Shown one piece after another: positions 1,184 to 23,021 of a stretch of DNA of 64,000 nt; within the stretch, counting starts at the first letter, position 1, and each line of letters opens with the position of its first letter. The notes below the pieces were generated by a model. It ran no database searches. It was not told the DNA's origin and saw only the letters and a list, made by a program, of their open reading frames with translations. Origin of the DNA: Escherichia phage 236Ecol005PP; the sequence record PP434423.1. One strand, 5' to 3'. A program made the translations under genes and the position numbers.

Positions 1184-1370
1184 TATCTAAAATGTTGAAG
1201 TTAAAAGATACAGCCCAGTCAGTGCAGACCGTAACCTTTTTAATACAATTATCTTCAACTTCTAGCGGTTCAAACCAATATTCAATAATTTCTTTATGCC
1301 CAATATCATCTTTTACTTCGCATTCAAAATGCTGACTCATCATATCATTTTTAAATTCATCAAAAGTCAT
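1107..1370 (-). CDS. small hypothetical protein
   Basis: ORF track; start overlaps gp47 stop (1367-1370); no motif recognised. Confidence 0.45.
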   Translation of the reverse strand: MTFDEFKNDMMSQHFECEVKDDIGHKEIIEYWFEPLEVEDNCIKKVTVCTDWAVSFNFNILDNDTPKSLQDMAVSCIKDAYCEVFDI

Positions 1371-2386
1371 TGTGTTGCCTCTACATATAGCTGATTTGCA
1401 TATTGAATAAGTGCTTCGCGGTCAGAATCAGTGATGTCTGGAATTGCATTAATGTATTCTTCCATCAACGTCTGAAGAGATTGAACTTCAACTTCTTCAC
1501 TATCATCTGACTCGACAGAGTTATCAATCTTTGACACAACTCGTAATGAATGCACAACTTTTTCTAGTTCAGATTCGAACTTCGTTAGATTTTTGTCTAC
1601 TTCAGTTACTATAACACGTACTGATAGATTTGTAAAATCTTTATAGTCAATTTTTCCCTTAAATGGATATTGAATTCGACGATGCCAGGTAGTGTTGTTT
1701 GGAATAAATTCCATTCGTTCTGTTTCTGTATCAAACATCCAGAACCCGCGAGGGTCATTCTCGTCACCTGCAGTTAGTGTCCATGGTGTCCCAATATATC
1801 TGACGTTAGCAGCCTCAGAGATAGTATGGAAGTGACCAGACCACACCTCTTTATAAGTCTTAAGGAAATCAGGTTCAAGACCGTGAGATTTCATTCCTTT
1901 ATAAAAATAAAATCCATTCAGCTCCCAGTGACCAACACAAAAAGAAGCAGATGAAGTTTTGATGTGTTCAAGAATTTCACCAGTATTTTCTTCGCACATC
2001 CAAGGAATTAAATCAATCAAACATCCGTCAAAATCTACTGTAGTAGGCTTATCATATACTTTAACATTAGGATATTTAGCCAAAAGCTCAGTAGAAGCAT
2101 TTGGATGCATTACATTTTTATAGTGGAGATCGTGATTTCCTACAATAGTATGTAATGTGATTCCAGCGGCATCAAGCATTTGAACTATTTCACGAGCAAA
2201 CTCCATAGTTTTATGCGTGATCGCTTTTCGTACATCAAAAATATCACCGTATTGAATCCATGTAGTAATTCCATTTTTCTTAGAATATTCTATCGCTTGT
2301 TTAATTCCATCAATTTGAATACCGCGAATCCATTCATCATCAGCTTTAACGCCTAAATGCCAATCACCCAAGTTTAGTATTTTCAT
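1367..2386 (-). CDS. 47: Recombination nuclease subunit gp47 (Mre11/SbcD-like phosphoesterase)
   Basis: 339 aa; N-terminal LNLGDWHLG phosphoesterase motif I, GNHD motif; paired with Rad50-like gp46 downstream. Confidence 0.9.
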   Translation of the reverse strand: MKILNLGDWHLGVKADDEWIRGIQIDGIKQAIEYSKKNGITTWIQYGDIFDVRKAITHKTMEFAREIVQMLDAAGITLHTIVGNHDLHYKNVMHPNASTELLAKYPNVKVYDKPTTVDFDGCLIDLIPWMCEENTGEILEHIKTSSASFCVGHWELNGFYFYKGMKSHGLEPDFLKTYKEVWSGHFHTISEAANVRYIGTPWTLTAGDENDPRGFWMFDTETERMEFIPNNTTWHRRIQYPFKGKIDYKDFTNLSVRVIVTEVDKNLTKFESELEKVVHSLRVVSKIDNSVESDDSEEVEVQSLQTLMEEYINAIPDITDSDREALIQYANQLYVEATQ

Positions 2387-2987
2387 GGTGTCTTTTCCAT
2401 CCTAATTTAGCTGCTTTTGAAACTAGTTCTTTAATTTTTCCTTTTGTCCATTCAGGACCAGGAGGTTCATGACATAACATTTGCTTAACTCCGTTATTAT
2501 ACCATTTTTTACCTTTATTATGTGATGAAGCTTTAAATTTATTTGACCTTCCTTTTACATAACCTTCTGGAATATACGGTAAAAAGGCAGATTTTCCTGT
2601 TAATGGGTCATGTGAATGTATGTTTCCTTTACAATTATGAGAACCATATAATGGATGATTTTGTCCTTTAATATCTCTTCCAAATGAACCTTTTGGAGCA
2701 GCATATGACATATTAAAGAATAATGGATTTTTAACCGCATTATGCAAACGTTGATAATATAGCTCGCATTTAATAGCTTCTTCGCGCGTATCAAATTCAT
2801 CTAAAATGCATGAATCAAATAAATGTGGGTTATTTGAAAGTTCTTCATTATAAATTTTCTTATACTTTTTAGATAAAACTGATCCATGATAGCCGGCTAA
2901 ATGCCTATCTAAAGATGTAGATCCAATATAAAAAGGAGGAAGTTTATCTCCACTATATATTGTTAAATAAGTTATATATTTTTTCAT
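2364..2987 (-). CDS. putative GIY-YIG homing endonuclease (Seg-like)
   Basis: 207 aa; N-terminal TIY-x9-YIG (LTIYSGDKLPPFYIGSTS), downstream conserved R/E/N positions, basic C-terminal half; 3' end overlaps gene 47 start by 23 nt. Confidence 0.55.
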   Translation of the reverse strand: MKKYITYLTIYSGDKLPPFYIGSTSLDRHLAGYHGSVLSKKYKKIYNEELSNNPHLFDSCILDEFDTREEAIKCELYYQRLHNAVKNPLFFNMSYAAPKGSFGRDIKGQNHPLYGSHNCKGNIHSHDPLTGKSAFLPYIPEGYVKGRSNKFKASSHNKGKKWYNNGVKQMLCHEPPGPEWTKGKIKELVSKAAKLGWKRHHENTKLG

Positions 2988-3145
2988 ATATCAAGAACCG
3001 TCATTGAAATGCAAAATAAAATTATTGAAATAAATCCATCTGGAGTACTAAAGAACCCAATCCAACATGCTCTAGCAAATAGATAAAATGCAAGAAAAAG
3101 TATCACATATCCAAGAAATATCATTATATCAAACTCCATATAAAG

Positions 3146-3163
3146 CTAAAGGGCCGAAGCCCT
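3146..3163 (-). terminator. GC-rich tetraloop hairpin immediately 3' of a-gt stop
   Basis: plus aaagggccgaagcccttt = minus GGGC-UUCG-GCCC stem-loop abutting stop codon at 3164-3166. Confidence 0.4.
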
Positions 3164-4366
3164 TTATTTTGTAATAATGTCAAACTGTTCTTTAAAGCAG
3201 AAGCTTGAATCTTGGTGCTGATACAAAAATTCATAAGCTTTTTCACGTTCACGGTCATAAAGAGCTCGGTCAGATGACAGTTCTTTAATACGTTCGAGTG
3301 TCGATTCCATGTCATTTTCATCAAACCAAATGATACCGCTATCATGCGAGGTCAAAGGAGTATTATCAACACGGAATTTCAAATTATCACCCGTTGATTT
3401 CCAGAAAACAGGAATTGTACCACAAGCACCTAATTCAAGATGAGTATATTCGAGTGAGCGTTGTAAGTATTTCTGGTTAAGTTTACTCAACTGATATCCA
3501 AAGCCAGATTTACTCATTCGTTCAAGCATTTCACTATTAATATAACAATCTAGGATTTGTGCCGGTTGATTCGGCGCGAGATTCATTTTATCAATCTCAC
3601 GATTACCGTAATATTCATGCGGAATACCTTTTTCCTTAATTGCAATAAAAGCAGGGGAACGTTCAAGACCTTCCATTACAGTGGATTTACCAGCAGGTTT
3701 TAAGAATTTTTCATGAAAATCAAACATCTGATAAAAACCTTTCCATGTAGTCGTACGACCAATCCAACGGTTGATGTTCATGTTAATTTCAGAAACATCT
3801 TTCCAATAAGTTGACCGAACCTTCGCAATATCCATAGGAGGCTGAAAATTATATACTGTTGGTGCTTCTTCAATATCATCAAACAGAGAAACAGTTTCTG
3901 GATACCATTCTTTCATCAGAACTTTATTAAAATCACCATTATCAGAATGGCTAAAAATAACATCAGCTCGACGAACAGTTTCTTCTAATCCCAAATTTCG
4001 ACGCAAAGAAAGCACAGAATGATCATGCTGATAAACTACAACACGAATAGAAGGTTTAATATTATCTAAGAGTTTTTTATAGTTATTAATCGTAGCTTCT
4101 TGAACGGAAGTAGCAGGAACAGAATTAATAATTAGAATATCACAATCATTAATCAATTTAAGTGCTTTATCGTATTCTTTAGCTAAAATAACTGGAATTG
4201 AAAATGATTTGTGGTCATGAGAACTTGTACGAGTAAATGATTTATCTTTAGCATAAACCAGAGTTACTTCATGACCATTTTTAATGAACCAATCACGTTG
4301 CTCAAGAGAAAATTTAGTTACGCCGCAACCTTCAAGACCCCGAGCCATAAAAATGCATACTTTCAT
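3164..4366 (-). CDS. a-gt: DNA alpha-glucosyltransferase (HMC-DNA glucosylation)
   Basis: 400 aa, N-terminus MKVCIFMARGLEGCGVTKFSLEQRDWF matches my recollection of T4 a-gt; T4-like position between 47 and 55. Confidence 0.85.
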   Translation of the reverse strand: MKVCIFMARGLEGCGVTKFSLEQRDWFIKNGHEVTLVYAKDKSFTRTSSHDHKSFSIPVILAKEYDKALKLINDCDILIINSVPATSVQEATINNYKKLLDNIKPSIRVVVYQHDHSVLSLRRNLGLEETVRRADVIFSHSDNGDFNKVLMKEWYPETVSLFDDIEEAPTVYNFQPPMDIAKVRSTYWKDVSEINMNINRWIGRTTTWKGFYQMFDFHEKFLKPAGKSTVMEGLERSPAFIAIKEKGIPHEYYGNREIDKMNLAPNQPAQILDCYINSEMLERMSKSGFGYQLSKLNQKYLQRSLEYTHLELGACGTIPVFWKSTGDNLKFRVDNTPLTSHDSGIIWFDENDMESTLERIKELSSDRALYDREREKAYEFLYQHQDSSFCFKEQFDIITK

Positions 4367-4390
4367 TTAATATCCTCATTGTTTTGGTTT

Positions 4391-4414
4391 ATTTTACAAA
4401 AAATTTATAAAGCA
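4391..4414 (-). promoter_or_regulatory. candidate MotA-type middle promoter upstream of a-gt
   Basis: minus strand TTGCTTTA (MotA-box-like) followed 11 nt later by TAAAAT, ~25 nt upstream of a-gt ATG. Confidence 0.3.
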
Positions 4415-4609
4415 ATATAGGAGCAGAAGCTCCTATCCGCATAATACACCATACAGAGGCTCATTAGAGCTTCTAAATTTTATACGTTTATATGTTATAG
4501 TTCCTTCCGCTTTAGCTTTATCATGAGCCTCTTTAAAGCGTCTCATCATTTCCTCTTTAGAGGAACGAATTTTATTATAATCTATTTCAGAAGTCTGGAT
4601 GTTCATCTT

Positions 4610-4816
4610 TCACAGTTGCCACCATTTTTTGACTTGATAAGAATCAACCCACACTTTCATATTAGGGTCTGCTCTTACAATAGGAGGATTAACTTCTTTA
4701 ATTGAACTATCATGGTATTCTTTTTCAGAAATTTTCACACAAAGATGACCATTCAAAGATTCAGTAAATCCTGCATTAATTTTAAGACGCTTGAATTTTA
4801 CGTGTGTAAGCATCAA
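4610..4816 (-). CDS. small hypothetical protein
   Basis: ORF track; tandem minus-strand packing. Confidence 0.4.
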   Translation of the reverse strand: MMLTHVKFKRLKINAGFTESLNGHLCVKISEKEYHDSSIKEVNPPIVRADPNMKVWVDSYQVKKWWQL

Positions 4817-11494: not shown

Positions 11495-12032
11495 ACTCAT
11501 ACGCCTGGAATGCATCGTATACATCTTTTTCTGTTTTAGATTGGGCATAATTCAATGCATCTGCGATTTGCCATTTTTCCGCGTCCTCAATATGTTTCGC
11601 ATAGGTGCGTTTAACATAAGGAGAAAGTACTTTATCTACATTCGCAAAAGTCGTTCCGCCATATTGATGAGAAGCAACCTGTGCAGTAATTTGTGCCATA
11701 ATTGCAGTAGCAACGCCGATTGATTTAGGGGTTTCAATCTGTGCATTACCGAGCTTAAATCCGTTCTCAAGCATTCCTTTTAAATCTACTAAACAACAAT
11801 TAGTAAATGGAAGAGCAGGGGAATAATCAATATCGTGGAAATGGATAATTCCGCTTTCATGCGCTTTCATAATAAAAGACGGGACCATATTTTTGGCAAT
11901 GTGTTTAGACACAATACCAGCCATAAGGTCCCGTTGAGTTGGAAAAACACGAGAATCTTTATTAGCATTCTCGTTTAAAAGGTCTTTATTAGTTTTATGA
12001 ATCAATCCTTCAATTTCTTTTTCAATTGTCAT
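11495..12032 (-). CDS. nrdD: Anaerobic ribonucleotide reductase NrdD, exon 1
   Basis: 179 codons from ATG 12030-12032; in-frame stop 6 nt into intron. Confidence 0.8.
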
Positions 12033-12502
12033 TTTAAACTCTTTCTAAGCTGCTTCTTAAATGAAGCTATTAATTGTGTTTTAGTGTCAGATTCATTATA
12101 TTCAAATCCTCTTTGAAGCATCTCAGCCATCATTTCCTCTTTTCCTAAACGAGAAAATTCCTTTGATTTATCTCCAACAAAGTTAGGGTGAATATTATTT
12201 TGGGTGTAATCGGATTTTAAATAAGTAAGTAAATTTTCTAACCATTCAAGATAATCAACACCTTGTCCCTTTAAGCCAGAACGATTGAATTTATGCTTCA
12301 TTTGACCTTCTGCAGCATTACAGAGATTACATAGCAACCCACGTACCTTTCCTGCTTTTGGTCCATTTAATTCATGGTCATGGTCAAGGTGATTAGCTTG
12401 AACATCAGGATTTAGTTCTCGTTGGCAAATTAAGCATTTACCGTTTTGTGCATTATAAAATTTTTGTTTTTCTTCTTTGTATAATTTGCCAGTCAATAAC
12501 AT
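12029..12502 (-). CDS. 49: Endonuclease VII (Holliday junction resolvase)
   Basis: 157 aa; CLICQRELNPDVQANHLDHDHELNGPKAGKVRGLLCNLCN Zn-binding/HNH-like core as in T4 gp49. Confidence 0.9.
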   Translation of the reverse strand: MLLTGKLYKEEKQKFYNAQNGKCLICQRELNPDVQANHLDHDHELNGPKAGKVRGLLCNLCNAAEGQMKHKFNRSGLKGQGVDYLEWLENLLTYLKSDYTQNNIHPNFVGDKSKEFSRLGKEEMMAEMLQRGFEYNESDTKTQLIASFKKQLRKSLK

Positions 12503-12546
12503 AATAAAACCCTTACCTTAAATAGATAAGGGTATTTATTATTTTC

Positions 12547-12720
12547 AAGTATTGTAAAACATTCGATGCAATCGCTTATATTGTCGAATCATCTTTTTAG
12601 TAGGACGAGAATAAGTTCCTACACAAGTAGTCATATTAGGGTCTGTAGAATTTCCTTTAATAAAAAGTTTCCAAACCTTACTACCATTTAGCTTTTCAGT
12701 ATAAATCAATTCAGTTTTCA
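12547..12720 (-). CDS. small hypothetical protein (57 aa)
   Basis: ATG 12718-12720 directly after stop of upstream ORF; below ORF-track cutoff. Confidence 0.3.
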
Positions 12721-20206: not shown

Positions 20207-20926
20207 TTAGGATTCTTCTAAATGTCTTTTCTGAAAAGTTGATACCATACTACGATACGGTTCATTTGGATATCCGTGTTTTATAGCTTCCTTTGTAAAT
20301 TTTCTCCATCCATATTTAGTTTCTTTCCAAAGCTCGAATAATTCATCTTCATACTGCCATATAGTTAAATGAGAACGCTTTGCAGCTTTAATTCCATTAA
20401 TATGCTTTTCTTTTACTGCAGGATTGCTTAGTTTCTTTTTAATAATATTACTAACTTTTCTAACAAAAACTGGGTCCTTATATCGTTGCGAAGTTTTTAT
20501 TGAAGTGTTTAATTTAACTTCCGGCGTGGATGTAACCTCTTTCATCTTTTTCTTCATATGCTGTATATGATTAGGATTTTTCCATAAATTTATAGAATGC
20601 TTTTTGCATTTTATCCTAGTTTCATCTGCAACCTTTCCTCCTTCACCCCCGTATGACAGGTTAACACAGTTTTTTCCATATTTCAATTTACCTGCCATGA
20701 TATATAATATTTCAGCTTGTACCATTTTATCATAATTATCAAAAACTTCTAAAACCGTTTTTGATAATATGTGGTCATTTGACACTTTTACACGTTCTAT
20801 ATAATTTCCACTACCAACATACGAATCATTGATGTTATTAGTTATATGTCGACCATAATAGTATTTCTTAATACCTGTCTTTAAATTTAATATTTCAGTT
20901 TTATAGATAGTAAAATATTTTTTCAT
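20207..20926 (-). CDS. putative GIY-YIG homing endonuclease (at the slot T4 uses for mobD)
   Basis: 239 aa; N-terminal TIYK-x12-YYYG, YGKNCVN, Lys-rich C-terminal half. Confidence 0.5.
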   Translation of the reverse strand: MKKYFTIYKTEILNLKTGIKKYYYGRHITNNINDSYVGSGNYIERVKVSNDHILSKTVLEVFDNYDKMVQAEILYIMAGKLKYGKNCVNLSYGGEGGKVADETRIKCKKHSINLWKNPNHIQHMKKKMKEVTSTPEVKLNTSIKTSQRYKDPVFVRKVSNIIKKKLSNPAVKEKHINGIKAAKRSHLTIWQYEDELFELWKETKYGWRKFTKEAIKHGYPNEPYRSMVSTFQKRHLEES

Positions 20927-21891
20927 TTTAATAATACCGTTTCAGCAATTTCTTCCCAACCGTTTTTGTCGGTCATAATAAAGTCAGCAAGATAAAGAGC
21001 AGTACGCAGTGAAACATTGCGTAAACGATTAACATTGACTTTCATCCATGATAATGCTTTATAAGTTTCTTCATCAGAAAGACCGCGCTTTTGCATCATG
21101 TCGGTTGAAAGAATAACATCTTCAACCCTGACCATAATTTCTTCATTAGTGTGAACACCCAAATCCAAATAAACTGAGCGGGACACTAATGCTTGTAAGT
21201 GTGGGGCAAGTTTAGTACCACGGTCTAATTCGCGGTCAATGTCAACGTTTGTGATAAAAACAATCGTTCCTTTAAATTCAAACTCACGGTCAATGCCTTT
21301 TTCTTCTAAGTAAGAAGATGCAGTGCTCCAGCAGACTTTACGGGTCTCTCCAGTGTCCAGAGCAGCTTTTAGAAGATTAAGAATGTCCATATCAGAGAAA
21401 ACATCCACATCATCAATCAAAAGGACAGAATTCTCTTCACGATTATTCCAAAGCTGCTCATAAAGACCAATACCAGAGATTTTACCATTAATGCTTTTAT
21501 ATTCAATGTATCCAATATCATTTGCTTTATTTAAAGCTTTATCTAAAGAATACGTTTTACCAATACCTGCTGCGCCAGAGATAATTAATGAACGAATATT
21601 TCCATTAATAATACCATTCGTCATCATTCCCATAACATTAAATCTTTTATTAATGCGGGTTTTCATATCTTCATATGATTCTTTAACTTCTTCAACTTTT
21701 ACACCATCATATGAAATATCTGATTTGTAAACCCAAACACCGCGACGTTTACCGTCAATTTCAACAAAAACTTTACCATCTCCTTGTGCATCTACCGGAG
21801 CATTATCTGGGAACCATTCGCCTAAGAGCTCAAAAGTTCCAGAGATTTCTTTACCGAAGTAGATACCCTTATTGATAGTTACAGTTTTCAT
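20923..21891 (-). CDS. AAA+/P-loop ATPase
   Basis: 322 aa from ATG 21889-21891 (GGAG SD); Walker A LIISGAAGIGKTYSL, Walker B SVLLIDDVD, sensor-like FITN. Confidence 0.6.
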   Translation of the reverse strand: MKTVTINKGIYFGKEISGTFELLGEWFPDNAPVDAQGDGKVFVEIDGKRRGVWVYKSDISYDGVKVEEVKESYEDMKTRINKRFNVMGMMTNGIINGNIRSLIISGAAGIGKTYSLDKALNKANDIGYIEYKSINGKISGIGLYEQLWNNREENSVLLIDDVDVFSDMDILNLLKAALDTGETRKVCWSTASSYLEEKGIDREFEFKGTIVFITNVDIDRELDRGTKLAPHLQALVSRSVYLDLGVHTNEEIMVRVEDVILSTDMMQKRGLSDEETYKALSWMKVNVNRLRNVSLRTALYLADFIMTDKNGWEEIAETVLLK

Positions 21892-21923
21892 TTTATTCTC
21901 CAAATCCGTATCAGTTGATAGTT

Positions 21924-21955
21924 GTATAGTACCATAAAGCTTTATGCTTGTAAAC
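21924..21955 (-). promoter_or_regulatory. T4-type early promoter
   Basis: minus GTTTACA / 17 nt / TACTATAC, same leader as 19807 promoter. Confidence 0.5.
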
Positions 21956-21987
21956 CGTTTTGTGAAAAAATTTTTGAAATAAAAAAA

Positions 21988-22005
21988 GGGAGCCCGAAGG
22001 CTCCC
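21988..22005 (-). terminator. tetraloop hairpin 3' of nucleotidyltransferase gene
   Basis: GGGAGCC-UUCG-GGCUCCC on minus strand, 3 nt after stop. Confidence 0.4.
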
Positions 22006-22007
22006 TA

Positions 22008-23021
22008 TCATTTATAATAACTTCGGTGGTTTTCAAGATAAACCCTCTCAAGGAAGTCATCCCAGAAACCCATGTCTACTTTTTGCTGCATACCGTTCTT
22101 AGAAGCTTCAATGGATGCTGCTTCTACTTGATCGACCACATCTTCCAAAAACTCTTGAACAGTTTTAAATGGGTGTTTACCCAGCTTCACGTCGAGAATA
22201 AATGGAGCGTCTTGAAGTGGATAGACTAAGTCACCAGTTTTGTAAATTTCCAATAGTTGGAGTCCACCACGACAAGCATGACTCAGAGCTTTCCAATCAA
22301 TGCCTTCATTAGCTTCAGCTTTACGAGCACGTTCACCATATTCAGCATCAAGTTTATTCAAAGACTGCTTAAGCTCAATAAGAGAAAGTGTTGTCTGATA
22401 TTTACGACCCAACACAGTGTAGAACGTTTGTGGGCCTGTTTTCTCATGATTATGGAATACCCATTCACAGAATTCGTTTTCTGGAAGACGGTGTTTAATA
22501 TCTTCAACTTTAGTGCGACGTTGTCCTTGTGTTCCATCTTCTCGGTAATCAACCCACTGGTCAGGGATTTGATTAACTACTTTCAATACATCACGTAATG
22601 CGGCCAAACGAGAACCCTTGACACCGTATTTAGAAGCTTGCTTGCGAACATATCCTAAATAGGATTTCATGTTAGTCGTATAAAAACGAGAACGATTGTC
22701 TTGAATAAACTTCCATACATCAGGCAAATCAGATTTAACTACCAGTTCAGGTGGAGTGTGGAGCATATCCAATGCTACAGTTTCACCATCTGCTGCTAAT
22801 TTAAAGAAATACTTAAGACTGTATAGTTCATGGTCAATATCATCTTTAGTGTTTTTAGATGATGTGTTATTAGTGTTTTTACTCATATGCTCTTTAACAT
22901 TTCCGATAAGAATATCGCGAGCAGGAGGAACAAAGATTTCTTTAAAATCTACATCAGATTCTGGAGTAGAAGTTCCATAAAGATGACTACCAAAATAGCT
23001 TTTCATTACTGTTTTCATCAT
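22008..23021 (-). CDS. Pol-beta-superfamily nucleotidyltransferase-fold protein
   Basis: 337 aa; N-terminal FGSHLYGTSTPESDVDF = hG[GS]-x10-DxD signature. Confidence 0.6.
   Translation of the reverse strand: MMKTVMKSYFGSHLYGTSTPESDVDFKEIFVPPARDILIGNVKEHMSKNTNNTSSKNTKDDIDHELYSLKYFFKLAADGETVALDMLHTPPELVVKSDLPDVWKFIQDNRSRFYTTNMKSYLGYVRKQASKYGVKGSRLAALRDVLKVVNQIPDQWVDYREDGTQGQRRTKVEDIKHRLPENEFCEWVFHNHEKTGPQTFYTVLGRKYQTTLSLIELKQSLNKLDAEYGERARKAEANEGIDWKALSHACRGGLQLLEIYKTGDLVYPLQDAPFILDVKLGKHPFKTVQEFLEDVVDQVEAASIEASKNGMQQKVDMGFWDDFLERVYLENHRSYYK

What the first reader, a model, noticed from the sequence alone, without database searches (positions are those of the whole stretch)
2364..2987. GIY-YIG endonuclease-like gene wedged between a-gt and gene 47, overlapping the gene 47 start
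The 207-aa ORF has a GIY-YIG head (LTIYSGDKLPPFYIGSTS with downstream R, E, N positions) and a basic tail, like free-standing Seg endonucleases. Its last 23 nt overlap the gene 47 start. I do not recall a homing endonuclease at this junction in T4, so this may be a mobile insertion specific to this phage lineage, and its cleavage target could lie in a-gt or gene 47 of endonuclease-free relatives.
Basis: partly seen in the sequence, partly recalled or inferred. Interest (0 to 1): 0.45.

Follow-up and report, generated by a model that had tools for sequence, protein, structure and literature searches.

The report
Seg-like homing endonuclease beside gene 47
The ORF is a real, intact, selfish "homing endonuclease" gene of the GIY-YIG/Seg type, inserted just upstream of recombination gene 47 in about one in seven T4-type phages; it is an uncharacterised member of a well-known class, not a new kind of element.

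Summary
Window 2364..2987 (minus strand) encodes a 207-aa protein whose last 23 nt overlap the start of gene 47. It is a clean 601-bp insertion relative to T4. It lies between the small ORF 47.1 and gene 47, not directly against a-gt.

About 70 of roughly 520 Tequatrovirus genomes carry the gene, always at this site. Homologues sit immediately upstream of gene 47 in at least five other genera, including genera that lack a-gt. Intact copies are under strong purifying selection (dN/dS 0.05–0.10). Frameshifted, internally deleted and precisely lost copies also exist.

The only fixed differences between occupied and ordinary empty alleles are the insertion and four silent changes in gene 47 codons 3–6. 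This points to a target at the 47.1/47 junction or the gene 47 5' end. That target is inferred, not shown.

Verdict: an ordinary but neat free-standing homing endonuclease, unnamed and untested. It is a new member of a known kind, and many database records mislabel it "HNH endonuclease".

The parts
2364..2987 (-). Free-standing GIY-YIG (Seg-like) homing endonuclease gene, 207 aa, intact
   Evidence: ORF. PHROG 10820 at 3.7e-93. 99.5% identical protein in phages LYE-01 and SH-1. dN/dS 0.05-0.10.
2688..2987 (-). N-terminal GIY-YIG catalytic domain (about residues 1-100)
2367..2687 (-). C-terminal presumed DNA-binding region: one NUMOD3-like GxNHPLYG motif, then two beta-hairpin repeats (…NG…P-x-G-W/Y-x-K-G-R) shared with T4 SegE
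   Evidence: Family profile against SegE scores 42 bits over both domains; BLASTP gives 28% identity over 196 aa. The model shows hairpins at residues 123-136 and 161-172, pLDDT about 82-89. DNA binding is inferred.
2380..2980 (.). 601-bp insertion relative to T4 and other endonuclease-free phages; the boundaries are ambiguous within a 7-nt repeat
   Evidence: Pairwise and multiple alignments.
2380..2386 (-). 7-nt direct repeat ATGAAAA (coding strand), here the gene 47 start. The second copy is at 2981-2987, the endonuclease start.
   Evidence: Endonuclease-free 'scar' alleles are consistent with deletion between the two copies.
2981..2987 (-). Second copy of the ATGAAAA repeat. The endonuclease start codon takes over the ATGA stop/start overlap with 47.1 that gene 47 has in T4.
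2369..2378 (-). Four silent substitutions in gene 47 codons 3-6 (ATA CTA AAC TTG here; ATT TTA AAT TTA in T4-type empty alleles). They lie within the 23-nt overlap.
   Evidence: These are the only sites with no shared allele between 7 occupied and 8 empty genomes across about 6 kb. All full-length occupied junction hits are >=98% identical. Six IMG/VR Tequatrovirus empty alleles carry the T4 type.
1367..2386 (-). Gene 47 (Mre11/SbcD-like recombination nuclease subunit), the neighbour and probable target gene. Its 5' 290 nt carry the 'A' haplotype that is linked to the endonuclease.
2984..3139 (-). 47.1 homologue (small predicted membrane protein). Its stop overlaps the endonuclease start (ATGA).
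   Evidence: PHROG 6693 at 7e-31; T4 annotation.
3147..3166 (-). Conserved GC-rich hairpin with a UUCG loop between a-gt and 47.1, annotated as a terminator in phages fPS-90 and fPS-65
   Evidence: It is present whether or not the endonuclease is there.
3164..4366 (-). a-gt (DNA alpha-glucosyltransferase), the upstream gene of the same transcription direction
   Evidence: Pfam AGT at 4.6e-257.
4373..4419 (-). Pattern match to a MotA-box middle promoter upstream of a-gt; the likely source of the transcript that carries the promoterless endonuclease cassette
   Evidence: Regex match only. No late promoter (TATAAATA) occurs in 2200-4700, and sigma-70-like matches in the cassette do not exceed chance (8 found, 11.8 expected).

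Best explanation
The ORF is a functional, free-standing GIY-YIG homing endonuclease gene of the T4 Seg type; its closest T4 relative is SegE. It is a promoterless 601-bp cassette inserted exactly at the 47.1/47 stop-start overlap. It takes over the translational coupling to 47.1 that gene 47 has in T4, and it carries the gene 47 start codon inside its own last 23 nt.

Proposed mechanism, inferred by analogy with SegE, SegF and SegG. In a cell co-infected with an endonuclease-free relative, the enzyme cuts the empty allele at or near the 47.1/47 junction or the first codons of gene 47. This region lies next to the codons for the conserved GDWH metallophosphoesterase motif. Double-strand-break repair from the occupied genome then copies the cassette and flanking gene 47 markers into the recipient. 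The carrier's own allele would be protected by the insertion itself, by the four recoded wobble positions in gene 47 codons 3-6, or by both.

Shown here: gene identity, fold, homology, the precise insertion, sporadic distribution, conserved linkage to gene 47, purifying selection, and the existence of decayed and lost copies. Inferred: nuclease activity, the target location, and immunity through recoding. The confidence given (0.78) is for the identity as an active Seg-type homing endonuclease; the junction-proximal target on its own I put at about 0.5.

For: Mobile-element signature. The insertion relative to T4 is a clean 601 bp. The gene is present in about 68-73 of about 500-560 Tequatrovirus records, always at this site. 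Decayed copies exist: ZCEC15 has a +1 frameshift at window position 2504 (ESh16 likewise aligns in two pieces; not inspected), KNP1 and KNP5 have a 125-bp internal deletion, and KPV15 is fragmented. Eight phages have no endonuclease but carry the endonuclease-type codons.

Linkage to gene 47 rather than to the upstream neighbour. Homologues lie directly upstream of gene 47 in SEA1, KPV15, IME08, LC53 and avDM2. The 23-nt overlap with gene 47 recurs in SEA1 and avDM2; IME08 overlaps by 14 nt.

Function is retained: dN/dS is 0.05-0.10 at dS up to 0.17.

Target inference. The four silent changes at 2369-2378 are the only fixed differences between occupied and ordinary empty alleles. The same four codons are recoded in Dhakavirus occupied alleles (IME08, QL01) relative to six empty ones. 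All occupied genomes carry one of two gene 47 5' haplotypes. SegE, the closest characterised relative, cuts in the intergenic region where segE is inserted (PMC2330249).
Against: No biochemical or genetic test exists. Pfam GIY-YIG scores just below its gathering cut-off (21.4 against 22.6 bits). No PDB sequence match was found. The position aligned near I-TevI Arg27 is R/K/N across the family; the experimentally active Seg proteins share this feature.

The recoding-as-immunity idea fails in one of the three genera tested: Gelderlandvirus SEA1 (occupied) has the same gene 47 start as the empty relatives L047, L051, L062 and L063. The four changes lie entirely inside the endonuclease's own 3' coding end, so they may simply be cassette-borne sequence. 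The 'A' haplotype linked to the endonuclease is also found in about 190 empty genomes, including T4 and RB3, so it is not diagnostic of co-conversion.
Confidence: 0.78

Rival explanations
1. It is a homing endonuclease, but the cleavage site is not at the insertion junction. It lies elsewhere in gene 47, for example in one of the two dimorphic patches at window 2106-2163 or 2312-2330, or in a neighbouring gene. SegF and SegG cut hundreds of bp from their genes in this way.
For: Free-standing T4 endonucleases often cut far from their insertion site (PMC2988022). Every occupied genome has the 'A' version of both patches, and about half of Tequatroviruses have 'B'. In Gelderlandvirus the junction-proximal codons do not differ between occupied and empty alleles.
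Against: About 190 empty genomes also have haplotype A, so they would all have to be immune. The patches are not fixed differences. SegE, the closest relative, cuts at its own insertion region. The recoded codons recur in a second genus.
Confidence: 0.25
2. It is a domesticated nuclease kept for a benefit to the phage, such as excluding competing phages or their markers, or regulating or coupling gene 47 expression. It would not be a purely selfish element.
For: Purifying selection is strong. The gene 47 start and translation-initiation region are embedded in the ORF, so most deletions would damage an essential gene. Homologues are kept at this site across six genera.
Against: About 87% of Tequatroviruses do without it. 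Precise losses are viable. Frameshifted and deleted copies persist in viable phages. Purifying selection is also expected for an actively homing element. This reading overlaps with the main one rather than excluding it.
Confidence: 0.1
3. It is an inactive relic: a decaying endonuclease gene that no longer cuts DNA.
For: The Pfam score is below threshold. The Arg27-equivalent position is variable. Degenerate copies exist in some phages.
Against: The ORF is intact in the window and in about 60 other phages. dN/dS is 0.05-0.10. Y7, Y20, E75 and N92 are conserved. The fold is confidently predicted.
Confidence: 0.05
4. It is an HNH endonuclease, as RefSeq and PHROG-derived annotations label it.
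For: PHROG 10820 is described as 'HNH endonuclease', and many RefSeq records copy this label.
Against: Pfam finds no HNH family at E <= 1 and only GIY-YIG. The predicted fold matches GIY-YIG nucleases. The GIY/YIG/E/N motifs are conserved. The label is an annotation error.
Confidence: 0.01

Closest known systems
T4 SegE (free-standing GIY-YIG homing endonuclease inserted upstream of uvsW)
   Same: Almost the same length (205 against 207 aa). Same two-domain layout: a Seg-type GIY-YIG head with the GY(L/H)GS block, and a tail with two '…NG…P-x-G-F/W-x-K-G-R' repeats. The family profile matches at 42 bits over the full length, and BLASTP gives 28% identity over 196 aa. It is also a promoter-poor cassette inserted just upstream of a conserved DNA-metabolism gene in the same orientation. 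SegE cuts in the empty intergenic site of phages that lack it and homes with flanking co-conversion (PMC2330249).
   Different: A different locus and presumably a different target (47.1/47 rather than hoc.1/uvsW). Sequence similarity is only distant. This gene overlaps its downstream gene by 23 nt and carries that gene's start codon. No biochemistry exists for it.
T4 SegA, SegB, SegC, SegD, SegF and SegG
   Same: Free-standing GIY-YIG genes between conserved genes, sporadic among close relatives. They share the N-terminal signature, and the I-TevI Arg27 segment cannot be aligned in any of them. SegF and SegG cause localised marker exclusion by cutting the neighbouring essential gene (PMC2988022).
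   Different: Similarity is weak (profile scores of 20 bits or less). Their C-terminal regions differ, with NUMOD3 repeats in several.
I-TevI (td intron GIY-YIG endonuclease)
   Different: I-TevI is intron-encoded and has a zinc finger plus a helix-turn-helix tail. This protein is free-standing, has neither by Pfam, and lacks an alignable Arg27 segment.
PHROG 10820 / GenBank 'homing endonuclease' proteins (e.g. Klebsiella phage KP185, Serratia phage LC53, BASEL phages)
   Same: This is the same protein family. The window's protein is a member at E = 3.7e-93. Depositors already call some members 'homing endonuclease'.
   Different: The labels are inconsistent ('HNH endonuclease', 'hypothetical protein'). 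I found no paper that names the family, its gene 47 linkage or its target.

Membership tests
GIY-YIG nuclease superfamily | GIY and YIG motifs on the first two beta-strands | tested here: met
   YITYLT (Y7) and FYIGST (Y20, I21, G22) are nearly invariant in 41 homologues. They align to I-TevI GIY and YVG. The model has strands at residues 4-11 and 19-25.
GIY-YIG nuclease superfamily | Catalytic Glu (I-TevI E75) and Asn (I-TevI N90) | tested here: met
   E75 and N92 are invariant in 41 sequences and align to I-TevI E75 and N90.
GIY-YIG nuclease superfamily | Conserved Arg after the YIG strand (I-TevI R27) | tested here: inconclusive
   This protein has R28, but the column is R/K/N across the family. 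In the alignment with I-TevI this segment is a gap in all T4 Seg proteins as well. The model coordinates could not be inspected.
GIY-YIG nuclease superfamily | Pfam PF01541 gathering score | tested here: not met
   21.4 bits against a cut-off of 22.6, E = 3.2e-4. 17 of 41 relatives match at E <= 0.01. Borderline, so fold evidence was used instead.
GIY-YIG nuclease superfamily | GIY-YIG three-dimensional fold | tested here: met
T4 Seg-type free-standing homing endonucleases | Stand-alone ORF between conserved phage genes, not inside an intron or intein | tested here: met
   It lies between 47.1 and 47.
T4 Seg-type free-standing homing endonucleases | Seg N-terminal signature YIG-x(6-9)-[DN]-G-Y-[MLH]-G-S | tested here: met
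   In the alignment with SegA-G, this protein's AGYHGS aligns with DGYMGSG or DGYLGSG in SegA-E; SegF and SegG diverge at this block.
T4 Seg-type free-standing homing endonucleases | Detectable homology to a characterised Seg protein beyond the catalytic motif | tested here: met
   SegE: profile score 42 bits over residues 2-199; BLASTP 28% identity over 196 aa, pairwise E = 2e-5.
T4 Seg-type free-standing homing endonucleases | Presence/absence polymorphism with precise boundaries among close relatives | tested here: met
   A 601-bp indel, present in about 13% of Tequatroviruses and absent from T4, T2, T6, RB3, RB14, RB32 and RB51.
T4 Seg-type free-standing homing endonucleases | Site-specific double-strand cleavage of the empty allele, and biased inheritance in mixed infection | not testable with these tools
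   Requires in-vitro cleavage assays and phage crosses.
HNH endonucleases (database label) | HNH / beta-beta-alpha-metal motif | tested here: not met
   No HNH Pfam family at E <= 1. The fold is GIY-YIG.
NUMOD3-containing endonucleases | Pfam NUMOD3 (PF07460) repeats in the tail | tested here: not met
   Not detected in this protein, although 20 of 41 relatives that share the head domain have it. Only one degenerate GxNHPLYG motif remains.

The most novel reading that the evidence does not exclude
The family is a gene-47-specific homing endonuclease lineage that has tracked the Mre11-like gene across at least six genera of T4-type phages. It would do so with a built-in immunity device: its own 3' coding end overlaps and recodes the first codons of the target gene, so every copy arrives with a pre-immunised target. 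Specificity would co-diverge with genus-specific wobble patterns. In support, the Tequatrovirus occupied allele ATGAAAATACTAAAC equals the Dhakavirus empty allele, and the reverse is nearly true. The rare endonuclease-free 'scar' alleles would then be resistant empty sites, so that all stages of the invade, decay, lose and re-invade cycle are visible in one dataset.
Probability: 0.3. Interest if true: 0.5.

Novelty: new member of a known kind. Interest (0 to 1): 0.3.

Why it matters
Free-standing homing endonucleases drive localised marker exclusion and mosaicism in T4-type phages. Only some of the seven T4 Seg enzymes have been characterised.

This gene adds an uncharacterised, apparently active Seg-type enzyme linked to gene 47, the phage's Mre11-like nuclease subunit. 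The gp46/47 complex is required for recombination and host-DNA degradation (T4 annotation).

Hundreds of sequenced relatives carry occupied, decayed, precisely emptied and never-occupied alleles. The locus is therefore a convenient natural system for testing how such elements choose targets, protect their own genome and cycle through populations.

There are two practical points. Many RefSeq records label the protein "HNH endonuclease", which is wrong. Therapeutic T4-like phage cocktails that mix carriers and non-carriers should be expected to exchange this region.

Tried and rejected
1. PDB sequence searches, with the single protein and with a 41-sequence profile, found nothing relevant. Fold comparison was needed instead.

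2. The 'HNH endonuclease' label is rejected.

3. a-gt as the target is rejected. SEA1, IME08, LC53 and avDM2 have no a-gt next to the gene, yet they keep it directly upstream of gene 47.

4. A promoter inside the cassette. Sigma-70-like matches do not exceed chance (8 found, 11.8 expected), there is no T4 late-promoter box in 2200-4700, and the only MotA-box match is upstream of a-gt. The cassette is treated as promoterless.

5. Whether the four silent changes compensate for RNA structure around the gene 47 start in its new context. MFE was -10.6 against -11.3 kcal/mol and mean unpaired probability 0.65 against 0.56. The difference is too small to interpret.

6. Generality of the recoding. It is replicated in Dhakavirus but not in Gelderlandvirus, so it is reported as unresolved.

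7. High divergence between occupied and empty genomes in the first 290 nt of gene 47 (dxy 0.12). At first this looked like a co-conversion tract. A database-wide count showed a pre-existing roughly 50:50 dimorphism, also present in empty genomes such as T4 and RB3. It is therefore only weak evidence.

8. IMG/VR scans added few Tequatrovirus loci: six, all empty.
Full report
**Observation.** The ORF listing gives an ATG-initiated ORF at window 2364..2987 on the minus strand, 207 aa. One detail needs correcting. A 51-aa ORF at 2984..3139, the homologue of T4 47.1 (PHROG 6693), lies between the endonuclease and a-gt (3164..4366; Pfam AGT 4.6e-257). Its stop codon overlaps the endonuclease start as ATGA.

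**Comparison with T4.** The order in T4 is 47 / 47.1 / a-gt / mobB, with 47.1 and 47 overlapping by ATGA and nothing between them. Aligning window 1367-4366 to T4 gives a single 601-bp gap at window 2380-2980. The same 7 nt, ATGAAAA on the coding strand, occur at both ends (2380-2386 and 2981-2987). The endonuclease therefore starts with the same seven bases as gene 47. It inherits the coupling to 47.1 that gene 47 has in T4, and the gene 47 start now lies inside the endonuclease's last codons (…W K R H H E N T K L G *).

**What the protein is.**
- Pfam finds only GIY-YIG, just under its cut-off (21.4 against 22.6 bits, E = 3.2e-4).
- PHROG 10820 matches at 3.7e-93. Its label, 'HNH endonuclease', is copied into many RefSeq records.
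- An AlphaFold model built on 41 homologues has pLDDT >90 over residues 1-95.
- The BFVD matches that carry a description are GIY-YIG, NUMOD, Seg-like, homing or intron endonucleases, apart from two labelled only 'Uncharacterized protein'; about a quarter of the 50 listed have no description.
- No HNH family is detected, so the HNH label is an annotation error.

**Conserved residues.** Across the 41 homologues, Y33, S39, F57, A71, E75 and N92 are invariant. Y7, Y20, I21 and G22 are nearly so. I extracted SegA-G and I-TevI from the T4 record and aligned them with the family. Y7, Y20, E75 and N92 fall in the columns of I-TevI Y6, Y17, E75 and N90. The block G-Y-H-G-S matches the D-G-Y-M/L-G-S-G block found in SegA, B, C, D and E; SegF and SegG diverge there. 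The I-TevI Arg27 segment is a gap in every Seg protein as well as in this family. The variable R/K/N at position 28 is therefore a Seg-wide feature and not evidence of inactivity.

**Relationship to SegE.** A profile of the family scores 42 bits against SegE over residues 2-199, covering both domains. BLASTP gives 28% identity over 196 aa. The shared tail contains two '…NG…P-x-G-(W/F/Y)-x-K-G-R' repeats, which the model folds as beta-hairpins. SegG scores 20 bits, and the other Seg proteins score less.

**Distribution.**
- DNA of the ORF is found at more than 95% identity in 68 phage records.
- The occupied junction (window 2340-2440) is covered in 73 records.
- The T4-type locus is found in about 500-560 Tequatrovirus records.
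- About 13% therefore carry the gene, always at this site.
- T4, T2, T6, RB3, RB14, RB32 and RB51 lack it.

**Homologues in other genera.** Homologues at 50-80% protein identity lie immediately upstream of gene 47 in five other genera:

| Phage | Genus | State |
|---|---|---|
| SEA1 | Gelderlandvirus | 23-nt overlap with gene 47 |
| KPV15 | Jiaodavirus | frameshifted fragments |
| IME08, QL01 | Dhakavirus | 14-nt overlap |
| LC53 | Winklervirus | no overlap |
| avDM2 | Biquartavirus | 23-nt overlap |

The upstream neighbour differs among these genera (a-gt, 47.1, a-gt.2-like ORFs). The constant partner is gene 47. More distant paralogues that share only the head domain sit at other loci.

**Evolutionary state.** Intact copies from six phages differ at up to 19 synonymous but only 0-7 non-synonymous sites. 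For pairs with appreciable divergence, dN/dS is 0.05-0.10 at dS up to 0.17. This indicates a working protein. Other stages of decay also occur:
- ZCEC15 has a +1 frameshift at window position 2504. ESh16 also aligns in two pieces, but I did not fetch its sequence.
- KNP1 and KNP5 have a 125-bp internal deletion.
- KPV15 is fragmented.
- Eight phages have no endonuclease but carry the endonuclease-type gene 47 start joined directly to 47.1: SHFML-26, BCPEco_001, BCPSen_003, Ec_YwIITB1, PBM-1, UGKSEcP1, UGKSEcP2 and EPIMAM01.

SHFML-26 and BCPEco_001 share the flanking haplotype of the occupied phage REP1. This is most simply explained by precise deletion between the two ATGAAAA copies, although an ancestral pre-insertion allele cannot be excluded.

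**Where it probably cuts.** In an alignment of 7 occupied and 8 ordinary empty genomes over about 6 kb, only four sites have no allele in common: 2369, 2372, 2377 and 2378. All four are silent third positions of gene 47 codons 3-6. Occupied genomes read ATA CTA AAC TTG and empty ones read ATT TTA AAT TTA.

Every full-length occupied junction hit is at least 98% identical to the window. None therefore carries the T4-type codons. Six further empty Tequatrovirus loci from IMG/VR carry the T4 type. Because an endonuclease must distinguish its own genome from the target, the recognition or cleavage site most likely spans the 47.1/47 junction and the first codons of gene 47. This region sits just upstream of the codons for the conserved GDWH motif.

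SegE, the closest characterised relative, likewise cuts in the empty intergenic site where segE is inserted (PMC2330249).

The pattern repeats in Dhakavirus. Occupied IME08 and QL01 read ATT CTT AAT ACG, and six empty relatives read ATA (C/T)TA AAC AC(A/T). The Tequatrovirus occupied sequence equals the Dhakavirus empty one, which would fit diverged specificities.

There are three caveats:
- Gelderlandvirus does not replicate the pattern. SEA1 (occupied) has the same start as the empty relatives.
- The four changes lie wholly within the endonuclease's own 3' end, so they may simply be cassette sequence.
- Some Seg enzymes cut far from their genes (PMC2988022).

**The gene 47 haplotype.** The first 290 nt of gene 47 show high divergence between occupied and empty genomes (dxy 0.12 against about 0.03 on the 47.1/a-gt side). 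This reflects a dimorphism with two patches, at 2106-2163 and 2312-2330. It splits Tequatroviruses about 261:261. All occupied genomes have version A, but so do about 190 empty ones, including T4 and RB3. This is compatible with co-conversion but does not demonstrate it.

**Expression.** No late-promoter box occurs in 2200-4700. Sigma-70-like matches do not exceed chance. The only MotA-box match is upstream of a-gt. The cassette therefore appears promoterless, as reported for several T4 seg and mob genes (PMC2988022). It would be read from the a-gt/47.1 transcript. Folding the gene 47 initiation region with either codon set gave no meaningful difference.

**Literature.** Searches found reviews and tables of seg-like genes in T4 relatives (PMC2988022, PMC2993671). 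None describes an endonuclease at the 47.1/47 junction or names this family. Some depositors already annotate members as 'homing endonuclease'.

**Verdict.** The gene is best explained as an active, free-standing Seg-type homing endonuclease whose homing site is at the 5' end of gene 47. It is widespread but sporadic, not lineage-specific. It is a new, uncharacterised member of a well-known class. Interest is modest. The locus offers a good natural experiment on self-immunity and the life cycle of homing endonucleases.

Noticed in passing
window 20207-20926 (minus strand): A second, unrelated Seg-like GIY-YIG ORF (239 aa, YYYGRH…DSYVGSG). It matches T4 SegA, SegB and SegE at about 1e-10 in a local phmmer search. 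It lies directly downstream of a 362-aa ORF (20923-22011). This may be another free-standing homing endonuclease in this phage.
   Followed up: partly
L013 (T6) 432-1286; also L010 (LYE-01), L024 (SHFML-26), L025 (BCPEco_001); RB51 (L016) has the same extra spacing but no CDS annotated there: An 855-nt ORF annotated 'homing endonuclease' lies between genes 46 and 46.1 in some Tequatroviruses. It is absent from the window and from T4, and it is a second presence/absence element only about 1.5 kb from the finding. Its presence does not track the gene 47 endonuclease: LYE-01 has both, T6 has only this one, and the window has only the other.
   Followed up: no
window 4367-4432, compared with L001 (T4) 11886-12680: T4 mobB (an HNH homing endonuclease between a-gt and a-gt.2) is absent from the window and from every other relative fetched. 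The a-gt neighbourhood thus has three independent endonuclease insertion sites across Tequatroviruses.
   Followed up: no
window 2106-2163 and 2312-2330 (gene 47 codons about 75-94 and 19-25): There is a sharp two-allele dimorphism in the 5' third of gene 47. It is partly non-synonymous (WIRGIQIDG against WVQSIQLDG) and splits about 261:261 among Tequatrovirus records. KNP1 is mosaic between the two versions. The origin and significance are unknown.
   Followed up: partly
window 3137-3139: A window-specific A (G in every other phage aligned) creates an upstream in-frame ATG. The 47.1 ORF is therefore listed as 51 aa, against 46 aa in T4. This is probably not the start that is used.
   Followed up: no
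RefSeq records such as NC_055723, NC_054911 and NC_054916; PHROG 10820: This GIY-YIG family is systematically labelled 'HNH endonuclease' in PHROG-derived and RefSeq annotation.
   Followed up: yes
L045, L048, L050 (IMG/VR contigs of about 170 kb, gp47 about 72% identical): A different genus of T4-like phages has exactly the T4-type nucleotide sequence ATGAAAATTTTAAATTTAGGTGATTGG at the gene 47 start, while the downstream codons differ. The putative target sequence is thus conserved at the nucleotide level across genera.
   Followed up: no
PV654520.1 (H66): A record named 'Pseudomonas phage vB_PSGBLB0006' (host P. aeruginosa) carries this Tequatrovirus locus at 96% identity. This is probably a mislabelled or contaminated record.
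   Followed up: no
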